From: Planctomycetota bacterium
GTDB taxonomy: Bacteria; Planctomycetota; UBA1135; UBA2386
Direction: 5' to 3'
Length of the DNA: 64,000 nt
Assembly (NCBI GenBank): GCA_947501605.1
Contig: CANMWZ010000016.1
Span: forward strand, 1-64,000
Position numbers: made by a program. This document shows, one piece after another, positions 48,001-54,000 of the stretch (position 1 is its first letter; each line of letters opens with the position of its first letter).

Positions 48001-51000
48001 CCGCTCGTAGCCTCGATCGATGTGGTAGACCCGTCGCACGTCCGTATGGCCGTTGGCGACAAGGCCCGCAAGGACGAGGCTCGCCGACGCCCTGAGGTCA
48101 CTCGCCATCACGGGAGCACCACGCAGATTGGTGGTACCCTCGATGATGGCGCTTGGTCCTTCGCGACGAATGCGCGCACCCAGGCGCTGAAGTTCGGCCG
48201 CGTGTATAAAGCGCTCGGGGTAGATCTTCTCGGTAATCACCGAGACACCTTCCGCGGTCGCCATCAGCGCCATGAACTGCGCCTGCAGGTCCGTTGGGAA
48301 TCCAGGATAGGGCATCGTCGTGATGTCAACGGCCTTGAGACGTCCAGCGGCCGTTGGGCGATTGCGCACGAAGTCCTTGCCGATCTCGATGTCGGCACCG
48401 GCAGCGCGCATGCGATCGATCACCGCCAGCAAGTGCATCGGATTGGCATTCTCGACCTTCACGTCGCTGTTGGTGAGGATCGCACCACAGAGAAACGTGC
48501 CAGCTTCGATCCGATCGGGAATCATCGACCACTCACAACCGTGTAGCGCGTCGACGCCTTCGATCTCGAGCAGGTGCCCACCGATGCCCTTGATGCGCGC
48601 ACCGCAGGCATTGAGGAAGTGGCACAGGTCTTCGACCTCTGGCTCCATCGCCGCCGACTCGAGCCAAGTCGTACCCTTGGCCAACGTTGCCGCCATCAAC
48701 ACGTTGGCGGTACCAAGCACGGTCGAACCCATGTTGCCGCCGAGGAAGACGACGCCGCCGCGAGGGACCCCGGTGATGCTGACGTAGCCGTCCGCCATAT
48801 CGACCACACCACCGAGAGCCGCGAGACCCTTGAGGTGCAGATCTACGGGGCGATGACCGAACACACAACCACCCGGGAAGCTGACCGAGGCAACACCGCG
48901 GCGAGCCCACAACGGTCCGAGTACGACGAAGCTCGCGCGCATGGTGCGAACGAGGTCGTAGGGCGCCGTATAGACCGTCTTGTCCTTGGCCTCGATCTCC
49001 AGCGTACTGTCGTCGAGCCAAGTGTACTGCACACCCAACCGCTCCAGGATGCGCAGGAGATTGAGGACGTCGGTGAGCCGCGGCACATTGCGCAGCAGCA
49101 CCGGACCGTCGATCAGCAGCGATGCTGCCAGAATTGGCAGCGCGCCATTTTTGCTGCCGGAAACACGAACGGAGCCGCCGAGACCGCGGCCCCCCCGGAT
49201 ACGAATGCGATCCAAGGAGACATCCCTCCGCGAACGATCGGGCATGACCGATCGACCGCCGTCATTATTAGGAACCAAACCGAACGGACGACCCCACTGA
49301 CCGGCGGAATCGCACGACGCGGCGCATGCTAGCGAACGCAATTCGTGGCGCAATGCGGCGGTCGAGAACTTTCCACCGACAGGCAATACTCGCGCAGCGC
49401 AGCGACGAGAGACGAACCCCTTGCGACAGGGGCGCCTTGCCGTGGATGGTACGCGGATGCACATCCTGCAGCTCGCGCACGGCATCCCCCCCGAGAGCGT
49501 CGGTGGCGTTGAGCAGCACGTCGATGGACTCTCGCGCGCGCTGGCGCTGTGCGGCCATCAAGTACACATCTACGCTCGAACCACGGCACATGGCCACGCG
49601 CAAGGAGACCTGCTGCCGACGCTGGCCGGCAACCCAGCGATCACCCGCGCAGTGTTCCGCTGGGAAGGCGTTCGCGACCTTGCGTCCATGTACGACTGCA
49701 TCCCGATGGCCGCGACACTCGGGCGCTTCTTGGATGCGCAACGCGACCTGGGCATTCGCTTCGACGTCGCCCATGTGCACCACTTGACGGGAATGTCGAC
49801 CGACTCCCTCGCTGTGCTGCAGCGAGCCGAGGTGCCGACGGTGCTGACGCTGCATGACTACTGGTCGATGTGCCCGCGCGGACAGATGTGGCATCGACGC
49901 GAAGAGGTGTGCGAACAGGTCGAGCCGCAACGATGCGGCGAGTGCCTCGCACAGACGTTCCCGGGTTGGCTGAAACCAGAAACGGGAGCCCCCGCAGCAG
50001 CGGCCCTCCATGATCGGGCTCGCGCCGTGCTGGCTCAGGCCACCAAACTCGTGATCCCGTCGGCACGGGCACTCGCGCCCTTCCTCAAGCTGGGCGTCCC
50101 GAGAGAACGCATCACCGTCGTGGAGAACGGCGTCGATACCGAGGCCCTGCGGATGTTGCCGCTCCCAGCCTGTGGGCCGGGTCCTCTGCGTCTGGGCTAC
50201 CTCGGAACCGTAATGCCCAGCAAGGGACTTCACGTCTTGCTCGAGGCGGTGCTACGGCAACCCCGGGGCAGCGTCGAACTCCACATCCACGGCAATGTGG
50301 TCCCCTACCACGGCGACGACAGCTACGGAACCCGTTGCTTTGGCCGACTCACGCCAGGATGCGGCGTTCACTACCACGGCCCCTACGCGACCGGAGAACT
50401 TCCGGCCATCCTTGGCACCATCGATGTCGTCTGCGCCCCTGCCTTGTGGCAGGAAGCGTTCGGGCTGACCGTGCGCGAGGCCTCGGCGGCAGGGCGCCCA
50501 GTGCTGGCCAGCCGAATTGGCGGCCTGCAGGACGCCGTCATCGACGGCCAGGAAGGGCGCGTCCTGGCCCCCGGGGATGTCGACGCCTGGGCCCTGGCCA
50601 TCGGCGAATTCGCAAACGACCGAGCGGCGGTGCGCACCATGGCCGCCCGGAGCCGCCCAAGAGCTCGCGGCTTCAGCGCCATGGCCGACGACCTGATCCA
50701 GGTCTACGGAGCGGCCCGGACCGCGGGTCCGTAGCTCTGGGCCACACCGCGCTTGACCGACGCCTAGGGCTCTGCCTACGCTCCCCTGCCCATTTTTGCG
50801 ATCGCGCGCCGCGATGGTCACAGCGACCACCGGGCCGTTGCGAGTCCATCCCCAGGAACGCCCCGATGACCGAAATGCTCGCGACCAACGAACCCACCGA
50901 GTCGCTAGATCCCAACGCGTTGCTCCGCGGTGAGATCAGCTTCGCCGTGCTCGACACGTTCCGGAGCAAGGTGTTCCGCTCGATCAACGCGGTGGAGCAC

Positions 51001-54000
51001 GTGCGTGACTGGCTAGGCAGCCCGCAGGCCCAAGGCTTGCCGCGCAGCTTGGCGCTGTGGGCCCTCGGACGTCACCGCGAAGCTCTGCCTGGCCTCTTGG
51101 CCCAGAAACAGAGTCCCGCGATCGCCGATTGCATCGCGCGCAGTTACATCGCTCTGGGCAAGTTCAGCGAGGCGGAGGCGATTTTGACCCTGAAGGGCAC
51201 CGACGGACGCCAGGCGTTCACGTGGTTGCTCGCGGTCGAATCGACGATGGACGCGGCGCGCCTGCACAAGGAACTCGAGCGCTGCAAGAGCATCCTGGAG
51301 CCCAACGACCGAACGTTCTTTGAAGGCCGTGTGCGTGAACTGAGCCACGACAGCGAAGGGGCCATCGCCTGCTACGACCAAGTGATCGGGCTGGCACCGG
51401 ACCACAAGTACGCGCTGTTCCGCTTGGCAGTCAACGTCGACCTGCGAGGCGAAGACGAAGAGGCGCGAGAACTCTACGAGCGCTCGCTGATGATCCCGCC
51501 AGTCAACTCGGCTTGCGTCATCAACCTCGGCGTGCTCTACGAGGACATTGGCAACTACCGTCGCGCGATGCAGTGCTTCGACCTCGCACTCCAGGCGAAC
51601 CCTGAGGACGAGCGCGCACGCCTGTATCGCCGCGATGCTGCCGCGGCCCTCAACATGTACTACGATGAGGACCAGGAACGCCGCGACGACAAGCGCAACA
51701 AGCTGCTGCGCACACCGATCAACGATTTCGAGCTGTCGGTGCGCTCACGCAACTGCCTCGCGAAGATGAACATTCGTACTCTTGGCGACCTAGTCAAGAA
51801 GACCGAGGCTGAGTTGCTCAGCTACAAGAACTTCGGCGAGACTTCGCTGGCGGAGATCAAGGAGATCCTCAAGAACAAGGGCCTCCACCTCGGCATGACG
51901 TCCGACGAGCTGATGAGCCGCGATCTCGGTGAGACCGTTGACATCCCCGATGATGTCGAAGAGCAACCAGACCCGCAGAGCCCGGACCCGGTGCGCCGCC
52001 CGATCACGGAGCTGGACCTCTCCGTCCGCAGCCGCCGCATCGTTGATCTGCTGAAGGTGCGCACGATTGGCGATCTTTCGAGCAAGACCGAAGCCGAGCT
52101 GCTGGCTTGCCCGAACTTCGGGCAGACCTCGCTGAATGAGATCAAGACCAAGCTCGACGAGCTCGGTCTCTCGCTCCGCGGCTGATCCTGTCCTCCAAGC
52201 CCGTCGGCACTTTTCCCCCTTGAGTTGGCCTCGCGCAAAGAGGCCGCGAACCGCGCGATGTACGACCACCTCCAAGGTGAGGTAATCGAGAAGCTCGGTT
52301 CGCGAGCAGTGCTGCGCGTGCACGACGTCGGTTACGAACTTCGGGTCTCGCTGTCGACAGCGAGCCTGTTGGTTCCGGGCACGCAGACCGTGCTGTTCAC
52401 GATCCTGCACGTCACGGATGGCATGCCCATGCTGCTGGGCTTCGCCACCCGCAGCGAACGTGAGTTGGCGCGGAAGCTCTTGGCCACCAGCGGCGTGGGC
52501 CCGAGCACGGCACTCTCGATCCTGAGCCACTATTCCGCGCCGGAACTCGTGCAGGCGATCGCCACCAGCGATATCGCAGCCCTGAAACGCGTGAAGGGGA
52601 TCGGCCAGAAGACGGCCGAGCGCCTGTGTCTCGAACTGCGGGATAGCGTGCGGAAGCTCGACATTGCACCGGTGGACGCACGCACCATGACCCCGCTCAG
52701 CGCCGCCGACGAAGACGCTGTGCTCGCACTCCTGACGCTCGGCTACTCCGAAAAGGAAGCGCGCGAGAAACTCGGCAAGGCGCGCGGCAAGCGCAAGGAA
52801 CTTGCGATGGCGTCCACGGAAGAGCTGGTCAGGGCCGTTCTGCAGTCGTGATTGCCTTGCTCGTCTCGCCGCCGCGATCGCGGCGCGCGAGCAGGACCAG
52901 TAACAACTGAACATCCGCGGGCCGAACGCCAGGAATGCGCGACGCCTCGCCGAGCGTGAGCGGTTGGCGCGCCAGCAGTCGGGTGCGGGCTTCGTTGCTC
53001 AGACCAGGAATCGCGACATAGTCGAACGACTCGGGGATCCGCCGATGCTCCATGCGACGCATCCGCTCGACCTCAGCACTCTGCCGCGCGATGTATCCCT
53101 CGTACTTCACCTCTGCCTCGATCTCCGCGAGGTCAGCAGGTGTCAGTGCGAGCGGCTCGAAGGCGGGATCCGACGCCAGAAGCTCGTCAGCGAACACCTC
53201 GGGTCGCCGCAACCACTCGAGCAAGGTGCGACCAGAACGACGATGCAATTCGAGCAGCTTGATCGCAGCGCGGATGCGCTGCTCTTTCTGCCGGACACGA
53301 TCGACTACCTCGCTGGCCAACAACCCCAACTGTTCGGCCATCGGTGAGAGTCTGCGGTCGGCGTTGTCGCTGCGCAACAGCAACCGAAACTCCGCGCGGC
53401 TGGTGAACATCCGGTAAGGCTCGGTCGGATTCACGCGACAGAGGTCGTCCACCATGACGCCGAGGTAGGCAGTTGCGCGATCGATCACAAAGGCACCTTC
53501 ACCGCGAGCAAACCGCGCCGCGTTGACGCCGGCGACCAGACCCTGACCTGCCGCCTCTTCATAACCGCTGGTGCCGTTGATCTGACCCGCCGCAAACAGG
53601 CCTGAGATGCCCCCGACCTGGAGATCCGCGCGCAGTTGATCCGTGCACAGGAAGTCGTACTCGACGGCATAGCCGGGGCGCAGCATCACCGCTGCTTCGA
53701 GGCCAGGGATCGTGCGCAGAAACTGCTCCTGCACAGCTGCCGGCAGGCTGGTGGAAATGCCGTTGGGGTAGACATCGTCGCTGTCTCGGCCCTCTGGCTC
53801 GAGGAACACTTGGTGTCCATCCTGGTCCGGGAACCGAACAATCTTGTCCTCCACGCTGGGGCAATAGCGCGGCCCCTGACCCTGGATTCGCCCCTGCACC
53901 ATCGGTGAGAGATGCGCATTGGCGGCCAGGATCTCGTGGGTTGCGCGGCTTGTGCGCGTGATCCAACATGAAATCTGAGGTCCGACGATTCGCTCGCTGC

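What a model noticed while it worked through the whole genome (the two positions that open the first line are those of the whole stretch)
50866..52185. Conserved TPR protein carrying two tandem copies of the RNA polymerase alpha C-terminal domain
g02046 (439 aa) is not RpoA: it has an N-terminal TPR region followed by two tandem copies of the RNA polymerase alpha-subunit C-terminal domain (alphaCTD), each 50-54% identical to the CTD of the genome's own RpoA, and it lacks the alpha N-terminal assembly domain. Boldest reading: it is a free-standing mimic of the pair of alphaCTDs that a polymerase presents, which binds UP-element DNA and/or alphaCTD-contacting activators and so either competes with RNAP (a global anti-activator) or recruits TPR-bound partners to promoters. 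New: a transcription factor class built from the polymerase's own promoter-recognition module, conserved at 69-91% identity and fixed length across a planctomycete li [...]
Evidence so far: Pfam: RNA_pol_A_CTD 79.7 bits (274-336) and 57.3 bits (371-432), against 76.4 bits for RpoA g00183's own CTD; TPR hits at 162-249. BLASTP: copy 1 54% id/61 aa (E 2e-16) and copy 2 50% id/64 aa (E 7e-15) to RpoA residues 261-324; copies 50% id to each other. Copy 1 keeps [10 protein letters not shown]...NFGETSL.EIK (RpoA here: LSVRSKNCL...NFGKTSLKEVK); copy 2 reads SVRSRRIV...[11 protein letters not shown]. find_homologous_proteins: the best 120 hits (416-461 aa, mostly 435-440) are 69-91% identical over 94-100% of the length, all with PF03118 plus TPR families, named only 'tetratricopeptide repeat protein' or 'RNA polymerase subunit alpha C-terminal domain-containing protein' in Planctomycetota MAGs. 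Gene lies between a glycosylt [...]
(Added by a program. Inside this text positions count along the whole contig: contig position 1 is position 1 of the stretch shown here. "Call 12" and the like, gene names such as g00115 and contig names such as C1 are that model's own, and its searches are not shown. The text may have been shortened before it was handed on; [...] marks where a part breaks off. The agent that wrote the report below was given it as the finding of a first reader that could run no searches.)

Follow-up and report, generated by a model that had tools for sequence, protein, structure and literature searches.

The report
Planctomycete TPR protein with two alpha-CTDs
This is a real, unstudied gene found in almost every member of the phylum Planctomycetota that joins a protein-binding TPR scaffold to two spare copies of the DNA-touching tail domain of RNA polymerase's alpha subunit, and it probably tethers a partner protein to DNA.

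Summary
Window 50866-52185 (+) encodes a 439-aa protein with a TPR solenoid and two RpoA-type alpha-CTDs and no alpha N-terminal domain.

It is not limited to one lineage. 387 of 401 genomes of the phylum have a match, 242 of 244 among the high-quality ones. All 10 complete genomes checked hold one copy plus one RpoA.

- **DNA-contact residues:** both copies keep the alpha-CTD DNA-contact positions as well as the phylum's own RpoA does.
- **Constraint:** copy 1 is the most constrained part, at 0.68 mean pairwise identity against 0.54 for the RpoA CTD in the same 11 genomes. It sits at a fixed distance from the TPR core.
- **Synteny:** ruvA lies directly downstream in 51 of 79 genomes and 36 of 58 families.
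- **Expression:** contigs from RNA libraries of three studies bridge the junction with ruvA.
- **Essentiality:** a likely counterpart, Plim_0602, is listed among essential genes of Planctopirus limnophila.

No functional study was found.

Best reading: a DNA minor-groove-binding adaptor, most likely acting at promoters. This is inferred, not shown. The scan has reported this family before on other DNA.

The parts
50735..50865 (+). intergenic leader between the glycosyltransferase gene and the start codon
   Evidence: ORF list and sequence. The consensus scan found no sigma-70-like promoter. One RNA-library contig starts matching at 50851.
50866..52185 (+). whole gene, 439 codons plus stop: TPR protein with two alpha-CTDs
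   Evidence: Translation, Pfam, full-length homologues, AF2 model with mean pLDDT 92.1 and pTM 0.70.
50941..51300 (+). variable N-terminal TPR-like helices (residues about 26-145)
   Evidence: Helix pairs in the AF2 model. Mean pairwise identity is only 0.18 across 11 genomes of different families. Many relatives align only from about residue 145, and short forms of 309-327 aa lack this part.
51301..51651 (+). conserved core TPR repeats (residues 146-262)
   Evidence: TPR_1/2/8/16/19 hits over 160-252. Mean pairwise identity 0.38. Length 116-120 aa in all 102 aligned members; net charge about -7.
51652..51714 (+). fixed-length connector (residues 263-283) with near-invariant D267 and E268
   Evidence: 21 aa in all 102 aligned members. 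Helix 268-281 in the model. Near-invariant columns listed.
51715..51894 (+). alpha-CTD copy 1 (residues 284-343)
   Evidence: PF03118 84.6 bits. R293, N322, G324 and E330 are invariant in 102 members. Mean pairwise identity 0.68, against 0.54 for the RpoA CTD. Forms one clade, support 0.91. Always 60 aa.
51895..51993 (+). acidic, proline-rich flexible linker (residues 344-376)
   Evidence: pLDDT below 50 at 354-364. Length 14-48 aa across the family, net charge -10 here, identity 0.17.
51994..52176 (+). alpha-CTD copy 2 (residues 377-437)
   Evidence: PF03118 62.2 bits. The R265, G296 and S299 equivalents are kept in 98-99% of members; the N268 equivalent is replaced by K or R in 86%. Mean pairwise identity 0.50.
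52186..52257 (+). 72-nt spacer to ruvA, with no terminator-like site
   Evidence: Terminator scan. RNA-library contigs of X1, X2 and X4 run across it.
52258..52851 (+). ruvA, the conserved downstream neighbour
   Evidence: RuvA_N, HHH_5 and RuvA_C. Same order and strand in 51 of 79 genomes.

Best explanation
The protein is a cytoplasmic DNA-tethering adaptor specific to Planctomycetota. The core TPR repeats, a fixed 21-residue connector and alpha-CTD copy 1 form one rigid module. Copy 2 hangs on a flexible acidic linker. Each alpha-CTD binds the DNA minor groove and backbone through the same residues that RpoA's alpha-CTD uses on UP elements, so the pair can occupy two neighbouring sites, as the two alpha-CTDs of a polymerase do. 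The TPR groove holds a protein partner and so brings it to that DNA. I consider it most likely that this happens at promoters, next to or in place of the polymerase's own alpha-CTDs, which would make it a lineage-specific general transcription factor. Shown: the architecture, the conservation pattern, the phylum-wide single-copy distribution, the synteny with ruvA, and presence in RNA libraries. Inferred: DNA binding, partner binding, rigidity of the TPR/copy-1 module, and the site of action.
For: (1) Architecture and fold. (2) The 265 (DNA) determinant is E. coli residues 265, 268, 294, 296, 298, 299 and 302 (PMC10853779, passage read). In copy 1 these read R100, N91, N100, G100, T97, S98, E100 (% of 102 members). 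In copy 2 they read R99, K47/R39, N97, G98, T90, S98, E96. In 11 planctomycete RpoAs they read R100, N100, N64, G100, T100, S55/T36, E100. An exposed minor-groove Arg kept in 100% and 99% of members is hard to explain by fold alone (role of R265). (3) Both copies gained a conserved Arg at position 267 (97% and 80%; variable in RpoA), and copy 2 gained K/R at 268. Each domain carries about +1 net charge, while the TPR part is about -7. (4) Copy 1 keeps the acidic 259/261 pair (D83/E16 and E94). The 261 determinant contacts sigma region 4 (PMC1874639, passage read). (5) Copy 1 is more constrained than the polymerase's own CTD in the same 11 genomes (0.68 against 0.54). There are no indels from the core TPR to the end of copy 1 in 102 members. 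(6) The gene is near-universal and single-copy: 387 of 401 genomes, 242 of 244 high-quality genomes, 10 of 10 complete genomes. There are 369 clusters at 50% identity with E<=1e-30. (7) Plim_0602 carries both the TPR COG and the RpoA COG and is listed in the essential-gene heat map of P. limnophila.
Against: No binding, localisation or expression-change data exist for any member. Alpha-CTD is an (HhH)2-type fold that could bind DNA without sequence preference, or bind proteins. Positions 294, 296 and 302 may be conserved partly for structure. The only conserved genomic link is to ruvA, a recombination gene, not to any transcription gene. Neighbours in the other genomes are unrelated housekeeping genes. 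Position 297 is acidic in copy 1 (E86/D9), which removes one positive charge near the DNA face, although 3 of 11 RpoAs do the same. The TPR partner is unknown. That Plim_0602 is the orthologue rests on COG labels only; I did not compare its sequence. The essentiality table itself (Sup. Data 2.xls) could not be read.
Confidence: 0.4

Rival explanations
1. Accessory factor of Holliday-junction processing or DNA repair. The two (HhH)2-type domains bind branched or duplex DNA, and the TPR recruits or regulates RuvAB or another repair protein. The gene is made together with ruvA.
For: ruvA lies directly downstream on the same strand in 51 of 79 genomes and 36 of 58 families, with a median gap of 47 nt. 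This holds in 32 of 60 genomes picked for family spread. There is no terminator-like site in the 72-nt spacer here. RNA-library contigs of three studies run across the junction. RuvA itself uses HhH motifs.
Against: The ruvA link is absent in all genomes sampled from 22 of 58 families, while the protein stays equally conserved. ruvB follows ruvA in only 1 of the 8 ruvA-adjacent loci whose +2 gene was scanned (L108). The domains are RpoA-type alpha-CTDs that keep the RpoA DNA and sigma-contact residues, not RuvA-type HhH. Operon partners of ruv genes in other bacteria are not always functionally tied to them (recalled). If the essentiality of the counterpart holds, it would be unusual for a Ruv accessory.
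Confidence: 0.18
2. Nucleoid-associated or chromosome-organising protein. The two alpha-CTDs bind A/T-rich minor grooves genome-wide, and the TPR mediates self-association or anchoring, so compacting or positioning DNA.
For: Two DNA-contact modules on a flexible tether. Phylum-wide, single-copy and probably essential. Restricted to a phylum with unusual cell biology (taxa).
Against: No evidence of oligomerisation or abundance was obtained here. Net charge of the whole protein is negative. Copy 1 retains the sigma-contact pair, which a pure architectural protein would not need.
Confidence: 0.15
3. Alpha-CTD decoy or anti-activator. The free alpha-CTD pair titrates activators or sigma region 4 that would otherwise contact the polymerase's alpha-CTDs, or competes for UP elements.
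For: Copy 1 keeps the 261 pair. The 287-determinant positions 285, 286, 288, 289 and 315 read T73/S23, E99, E75/D19, L99 and G92 (determinant as listed in PMC10853779). Solved complexes of alpha-CTD with MarA, Spx and NusA appear among the sequence hits, showing the domain is a common protein-contact point.
Against: A pure protein decoy has no need to keep the DNA-contact Arg in 100% and 99% of members, or to add Arg 267. Decoys are usually conditional regulators, not near-universal and probably essential genes. Copy 1 has its own conserved signature (F260, K272, M273, Y292, K310) that differs from RpoA, so it is not a faithful mimic.
Confidence: 0.12
4. A protein-protein scaffold with no DNA role. 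The alpha-CTD folds have been recruited as protein-binding modules, for example in a signalling or assembly complex.
For: TPR proteins are generic scaffolds. Ser/Thr kinase genes lie beside the gene in 3 of 20 sampled genomes (L116, L117, L121). Copy 1 has conserved family-specific surface residues.
Against: The DNA-contact positions are the most invariant in the protein. The kinase link is sporadic.
Confidence: 0.08

Closest known systems
C-terminal domain of the bacterial RNA polymerase alpha subunit (RpoA alpha-CTD, Pfam PF03118; solved e.g. as 1COO, 1LB2, 3K4G)
   Same: Both C-terminal domains match PF03118 well above cut-off and match solved alpha-CTDs at E 1e-15 to 1e-17. The four-helix pattern is present in the model. 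The DNA determinant and the acidic 259/261 pair are kept.
   Different: There is no alpha N-terminal assembly domain. NCBIfam rpoA equivalogs score 137.6-152.3 bits against cut-offs of 227.8-302. Two copies sit in one chain. Copy 1 is fixed to a TPR solenoid and carries its own conserved signature. It forms a clade apart from planctomycete RpoA CTDs.
Lineage-specific general transcription factors that add DNA contacts to RNA polymerase (CarD and RbpA of Actinobacteria, GrgA of Chlamydia, Myxococcus CarD with AT-hooks) - recalled, not tested
   Same: Restricted to one phylum, near-universal there, probably essential, and combining a protein-binding part with a DNA-contact part of low specificity.
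   Different: No sequence or fold relation. No evidence here that this protein touches RNA polymerase.
TPR-containing DNA-binding regulators (RNPP family: HTH plus TPR; SARP/AfsR-type regulators with TPR) - recalled
   Same: A TPR ligand- or partner-binding domain is joined to a DNA-binding domain.
   Different: Those use N-terminal HTH or winged-helix domains and occur as many paralogues per genome. Here the DNA module is a C-terminal pair of alpha-CTDs, no HTH family is found, and there is one copy per genome.
Other proteins with alpha-CTD-like segments: BREX kinase PglW (NF033442) and the 95-aa PRK07758 family (NF005841)
   Same: Weak local matches of copy 1 to these models (E 2e-07 and 3e-10, far below their cut-offs) show that the alpha-CTD fold occurs outside RpoA.
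   Different: Different architectures and contexts. This protein is not a member of either family.
RuvA domain II ((HhH)2)
   Same: A helix-hairpin-helix DNA-backbone binder encoded directly downstream. P0001 gives a sub-threshold HHH_5 hit (17.1 bits).
   Different: A different HhH family. There is no RuvA_N or RuvA_C in this protein.

Membership tests
RNA polymerase alpha subunit (RpoA) | N-terminal dimerisation and core-assembly domain | tested here: not met
   No alpha N-terminal family among 24 Pfam hits. NCBIfam rpoA equivalogs match only profile positions of about 217-325 and score 137.6-152.3 bits against cut-offs of 227.8-302. The genome has a separate 332-aa RpoA.
RNA polymerase alpha subunit (RpoA) | C-terminal alpha-CTD | tested here: met
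   PF03118 138.9 bits in two stretches. 49-50% identity to the genome's own RpoA CTD.
PF03118 alpha-CTD domain family | score above the gathering cut-off (23.8 bits) for each copy | tested here: met
   84.6 and 62.2 bits at DNA level.
PF03118 alpha-CTD domain family | DNA-binding '265 determinant' residues (265, 268, 294, 296, 298, 299, 302; PMC10853779) | tested here: met
   In copy 1 all 7 positions have the same consensus residue as planctomycete RpoA. In copy 2, 6 of 7 do, with 268 changed to K/R. This is a test of sequence only.
PF03118 alpha-CTD domain family | actual binding to UP-element or minor-groove DNA | not testable with these tools
   Needs a gel shift, footprinting or ChIP.
TPR superfamily | tandem 34-residue helix-turn-helix repeats forming a solenoid | tested here: met
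   TPR_1/2/8/16/19 hits. Paired helices 26-262 at pLDDT above 90. The best Foldseek matches are consensus TPR and APC/C TPR subunits.
TPR regulators with HTH (RNPP-like) | helix-turn-helix DNA-binding domain | tested here: not met
   No HTH family in Pfam or NCBIfam output.
Planctomycete TPR-2x-alpha-CTD family (unnamed) | TPR core, 21-aa connector, alpha-CTD 1, variable linker, alpha-CTD 2, about 440 aa, one per genome | tested here: met

The most novel reading that the evidence does not exclude
An essential general factor found in nearly all Planctomycetota that is built from the polymerase's own promoter-recognition module. A rigid TPR/alpha-CTD-1 unit docks on upstream promoter DNA beside sigma region 4. 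Alpha-CTD 2 takes the next minor groove. The TPR then recruits or holds RNA polymerase or a regulator. Planctomycete promoters would thus be read by four alpha-CTDs, two of them supplied in trans. That would be a new class of bacterial basal transcription factor.
Probability: 0.25. Interest if true: 0.85.

Novelty: new variant of a known kind. Interest (0 to 1): 0.6.

Why it matters
Planctomycetota differ from model bacteria in cell division, envelope and gene organisation, and almost nothing is known about how they start transcription. This is a near-universal, single-copy and probably essential protein whose most conserved part is a copy of the polymerase's DNA- and activator-contact domain. 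That part is kept more strictly than the polymerase's own domain. If the protein acts at promoters, it would show that the alpha-CTD module can work detached from the polymerase, and it would give an entry point to planctomycete promoter architecture. If it acts with RuvA or on the nucleoid, it would show re-use of a transcription domain in another DNA transaction. Either way it is a well-defined target in a genetically tractable species.

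Tried and rejected
- **Complex prediction with RuvA.** The protein (102-row alignment) was folded with the window's RuvA (46-row alignment). 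The verdict was 'no answer', score 0.00, and the controls were not run. This is not evidence either way.
- **Foldseek of the AF2 model against the PDB.** It returned only generic TPR solenoids (consensus TPR, APC/C, BBSome, OGT). No solved chain has the whole architecture.
- **Promoter and terminator consensus scan of 50500-53000.** No promoter-like site was found. The two terminator-like sites are no more than expected by chance, and neither lies between the gene and ruvA.
- **Essentiality table of PMC10632474.** Sup. Data 2 (.xls) is too large to be read here. I relied on the Fig. S3 gene list instead. My first supplement search for 'RNA polymerase alpha' wordings found nothing.
- **The Lys-to-Glu/Gln change at position 297 as a sign of lost DNA binding.** Rejected, because 3 of 11 planctomycete RpoAs also have Glu.
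- **Parts of the stretch without cover in single RNA runs.** Not interpreted.
- **A single clade for copy 2.** Not recovered: the best clade holds 77% of copy 2 sequences, support 0.22. The domain is too short to order the duplication events.
- **Five of the 14 genomes without a match, re-searched with the family profile.**
  - G084 and G006 hold alpha-CTD matches of 94-99 bits in open frames of only 66-73 aa, probably cut genes.
  - G202 has a weak 37-bit fragment.
  - G226 (88% complete) and G137 (99% complete, 310 contigs) show only an RpoA-like hit.
  - I treat this as 'not found', not as 'absent'.
- **Literature searches and a term search in the 2025 review PMC12673574.** None found a study of the family.

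Full report
**Observation**

The ORF list shows a frame open from 50335 to the stop at 52185. The ATG at 50866 gives a 439-aa product. Full-length relatives of 435-440 aa align from residue 1, so the annotated start stands.

Pfam finds RNA_pol_A_CTD (PF03118) at 138.9 bits in two stretches, and a set of TPR families over about 160-252. No alpha N-terminal family appears among the 24 families listed. NCBIfam rpoA equivalogs match only their C-terminal positions and stay far below their cut-offs, at 137.6-152.3 bits against 227.8-302.

In the genome's own 4.65-Mb assembly, PF03118 rings four times:
- twice in this gene (84.6 and 62.2 bits);
- once in RpoA on contig 1 (81.1 bits);
- once weakly in an unrelated protein on contig 2 (31.1 bits).

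BLASTP to the genome's 332-aa RpoA gives 49% over 82 aa (E 3e-16) for copy 1 and 50% over 64 aa (E 1e-12) for copy 2. The two copies are 50% identical over 72 aa.

**How wide the family is**

The best 120 database hits are 69-91% identical and are named only by their domains. The family is much wider than one lineage.

- Of 401 genomes sampled across the phylum, 387 have a match at E<=1e-20. Among genomes at least 90% complete and at most 5% contaminated, 242 of 244 do.
- Identity is 67-70% within the family and 40-54% elsewhere in the phylum.
- In 10 of 10 complete or near-complete genomes of nine families, there is exactly one family member plus one RpoA.
- An exhaustive HMMER search of 1.84 billion cluster representatives gives 369 clusters at E<=1e-30. 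The full-length ones are 423-477 aa.
- The ten nearest ESM-Atlas cluster sets are all 'commonest Planctomycetota'.

Five of the 14 genomes without a match were searched again with the family profile:
- G084 and G006 hold strong alpha-CTD matches in open frames of only 66-73 aa, probably cut genes.
- G202 has a weak fragment.
- G226 (88% complete) and G137 (99% complete, 310 contigs) show only an RpoA-like hit.

I did not search other phyla genome by genome. 'Restricted to Planctomycetota' therefore rests on source names and Atlas taxa only.

**Anatomy**

An AlphaFold2 model built on 102 diverse members has mean pLDDT 92.1 and pTM 0.70. It shows:
- paired helices from 26 to 262 (the TPR solenoid);
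- a helix at 268-281;
- a four-helix alpha-CTD at about 284-343;
- a helix at 346-355;
- a disordered stretch at 354-364;
- a second alpha-CTD at about 377-437.

Across the 102 members, the length of each part behaves as follows:

| Part | Length across 102 members |
|---|---|
| Core TPR | 116-120 aa |
| Connector | always 21 aa |
| Copy 1 | always 60 aa |
| N-terminal part | 130-187 aa |
| Inter-copy linker | 14-48 aa, acidic and proline-rich |

In 11 genomes of different families, mean pairwise identity by part is as follows:

| Part | Mean pairwise identity |
|---|---|
| N-terminal part | 0.18 |
| Core TPR | 0.38 |
| Connector | 0.28 |
| Copy 1 | 0.68 |
| Linker | 0.17 |
| Copy 2 | 0.50 |
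| RpoA alpha-CTD, same genomes | 0.54 |
| RpoA N-terminal domain, same genomes | 0.59 |

Copy 1 is thus the most constrained element, more so than the polymerase's own alpha-CTD. It sits at a fixed distance from the TPR core. I infer a rigid TPR/copy-1 module with copy 2 on a tether. I could not see inter-domain contacts.

**Residues**

PMC10853779 (passage read) lists the DNA-binding '265 determinant' as E. coli residues 265, 268, 294, 296, 298, 299 and 302. It lists the activator-contact '287 determinant' as 285-289, 315, 317 and 318. PMC1874639 (passage read) states that the 261 determinant can contact sigma region 4. Copy 1 aligns without gaps to E. coli RpoA with an offset of 28.

The counts below are percentages in 11 planctomycete RpoAs, 102 copies 1 and 102 copies 2.

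| E. coli position | RpoA (11) | Copy 1 (102) | Copy 2 (102) |
|---|---|---|---|
| R265 | 100 | 100 | 99 |
| 268 | N100 | N91 | K47, R39, N6 |
| 294 | N64, S27 | N100 | N97 |
| G296 | 100 | 100 | 98 |
| 298 | T100 | T97 | T90 |
| 299 | S55, T36 | S98 | S98 |
| E302 | 100 | 100 | 96 |

- Both copies carry a conserved Arg at 267 (97% and 80%), where RpoA varies.
- Position 297 is E/D in copy 1 (95%) and Q in 52% of copy 2. It is also E in 3 of 11 RpoAs, so this change does not argue against DNA binding.
- The acidic 259/261 pair is kept in copy 1 (D83/E16 and E94).
- Copy 1 also has residues of its own: F260, K272, M273, G279, Y292, a hydrophobic residue at 306, and K310.

In a FastTree of the 215 domains, copy 1 forms one clade (support 0.91) and 10 of 11 RpoA CTDs form another (0.98). 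Copy 2 is not resolved as one clade.

Net charge is about +1 for each alpha-CTD and about -7 for the core TPR.

**Surroundings**

In the window the gene follows a GT4-type glycosyltransferase, with a MurA-like gene further upstream. It precedes ruvA (52258-52851) by 72 nt, with no terminator-like site between them. mnmG converges on ruvA.

I located the gene and ruvA with HMMs in 79 genomes of 58 families.
- ruvA starts within 600 nt downstream on the same strand in 51 of 79 genomes. That covers 36 of 58 families, one of them mixed.
- The median gap is 47 nt.
- Leaving out the 19 closest-scoring loci and the window itself, the figure is 32 of 60 genomes picked for family spread and contig length.
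- All sampled genomes of 22 families lack the link.

In a Pfam scan of the two nearest genes on each side in 20 genomes, the other neighbours were varied: tgt, murA-like genes, ffh, SpoIID, Ser/Thr kinases and an ECF sigma factor. ruvB followed ruvA in one genome (L108).

**Expression**

Ten RNA-library runs of six studies hold part of the stretch. I laid four runs from three studies.
- One contig of run X1 matches 50851-52697 without a mismatch.
- Contigs of X2 (51867-52264) and X4 (51851-52349) also cross the stop codon and the ruvA start.

These are assembled contigs. They show presence in RNA libraries and are compatible with co-transcription. They prove neither a single transcript nor the absence of carried-over DNA.

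**Essentiality lead**

Earlier notes of this scan pointed to an essential counterpart. In PMC10632474 the text says that Fig. S3 displays the P. limnophila essential genes that have an orthologous group (passage read). In the supplementary list for that figure, Plim_0602 appears with both COG0457 (TPR) and COG0202 (RNA polymerase alpha subunit), next to the true RpoA, Plim_0499.

Every complete genome checked has one family member besides RpoA, so Plim_0602 is very probably the orthologue. I did not compare its sequence, and the primary essentiality table could not be read.

**Interpretation**

The invariant exposed Arg, the intact backbone-contact loop, the added basic residues and the two-module layout argue that the protein binds DNA the way alpha-CTDs do. 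The TPR argues for a protein partner. The retained 261 pair and the origin of the domain favour action at promoters. The ruvA linkage favours a recombination or repair context. The phylum-wide, probably essential status fits a basal factor or a nucleoid protein better than a conditional decoy.

I put 0.40 on a promoter-associated DNA-tethering adaptor. The rivals are 0.18 for a Ruv/repair accessory, 0.15 for a nucleoid protein, 0.12 for a decoy and 0.08 for a non-DNA scaffold.

A complex prediction with RuvA gave no verdict and is not used. Foldseek found only generic TPR solenoids.

**Known or new**

I found no paper on the family:
- the full-text searches returned nothing relevant;
- the 2025 review of the phylum does not contain the terms 'RNA polymerase', 'TPR' or 'RuvA' in its text.

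Databases already name the domains, and this scan has reported the family several times on other DNA. The domains are known. The architecture, its constraint pattern and its distribution define an uncharacterised family, which I class as a new variant of a known kind.

- the matched-genome comparison showing that copy 1 is more constrained than RpoA's own CTD;
- the fixed-length TPR/connector/copy-1 unit;
- the position-by-position determinant table, including Glu 297 in some RpoAs;
- a counted ruvA synteny (51 of 79 genomes, 36 of 58 families).

Noticed in passing
L004 1477-3165 (+) = G000 contig 2, about 25857-27545: A second protein of the same genome (at least 563 aa, open at the locus end) starts with a weak alpha-CTD-like domain (PF03118 37.3 bits, residues 9-63). 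It has no other Pfam match and is unrelated to the TPR family.
   Followed up: partly
L128, L130, L132 (RpoA loci of three other planctomycete genomes): The polymerase's own alpha-CTD reads NFGET... in 3 of 11 planctomycete RpoAs. It has Glu at the position that is Lys 297 in E. coli, and position 298 is Thr in all 11.
   Followed up: yes
L049, L088, L096: Short contigs (2-10 kb) of MAGs labelled Caldimonas, Luminiphilus and Thauera carry copies 68-71% identical to this planctomycete protein. They are most simply contigs placed in the wrong bin.
   Followed up: no
window 52829-52851: The 3' ends of ruvA (+, stop at 52851) and mnmG/gidA (-, 52829-54691) overlap by 23 nt in convergent orientation. 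The same ruvA/mnmG pairing is seen in L123.
   Followed up: no
window 50851 (run X1): The RNA-library contig that covers the gene and most of ruvA has 31 letters before position 50851 that do not match the window. This could be a strain difference upstream, a chimeric join or a library artefact.
   Followed up: no
window 47944-49485 (-); L116, L117, L118: A MurA-like gene (EPSP_synthase family) lies within two genes of the TPR/alpha-CTD gene here and in 3 of 20 other sampled genomes. ffh lies nearby in 3 of 20 (L117, L121, L123). These may be remnants of an older gene order.
   Followed up: partly
G137: A 99%-complete genome of family f7 (310 contigs) shows only an RpoA-like alpha-CTD hit and no TPR/alpha-CTD gene. 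19 of 20 genomes of that family have the gene.
   Followed up: partly
L105, L113: Short forms of the family (309-327 aa) lack the variable N-terminal TPR part but keep the core TPR, the connector and both alpha-CTDs.
   Followed up: partly
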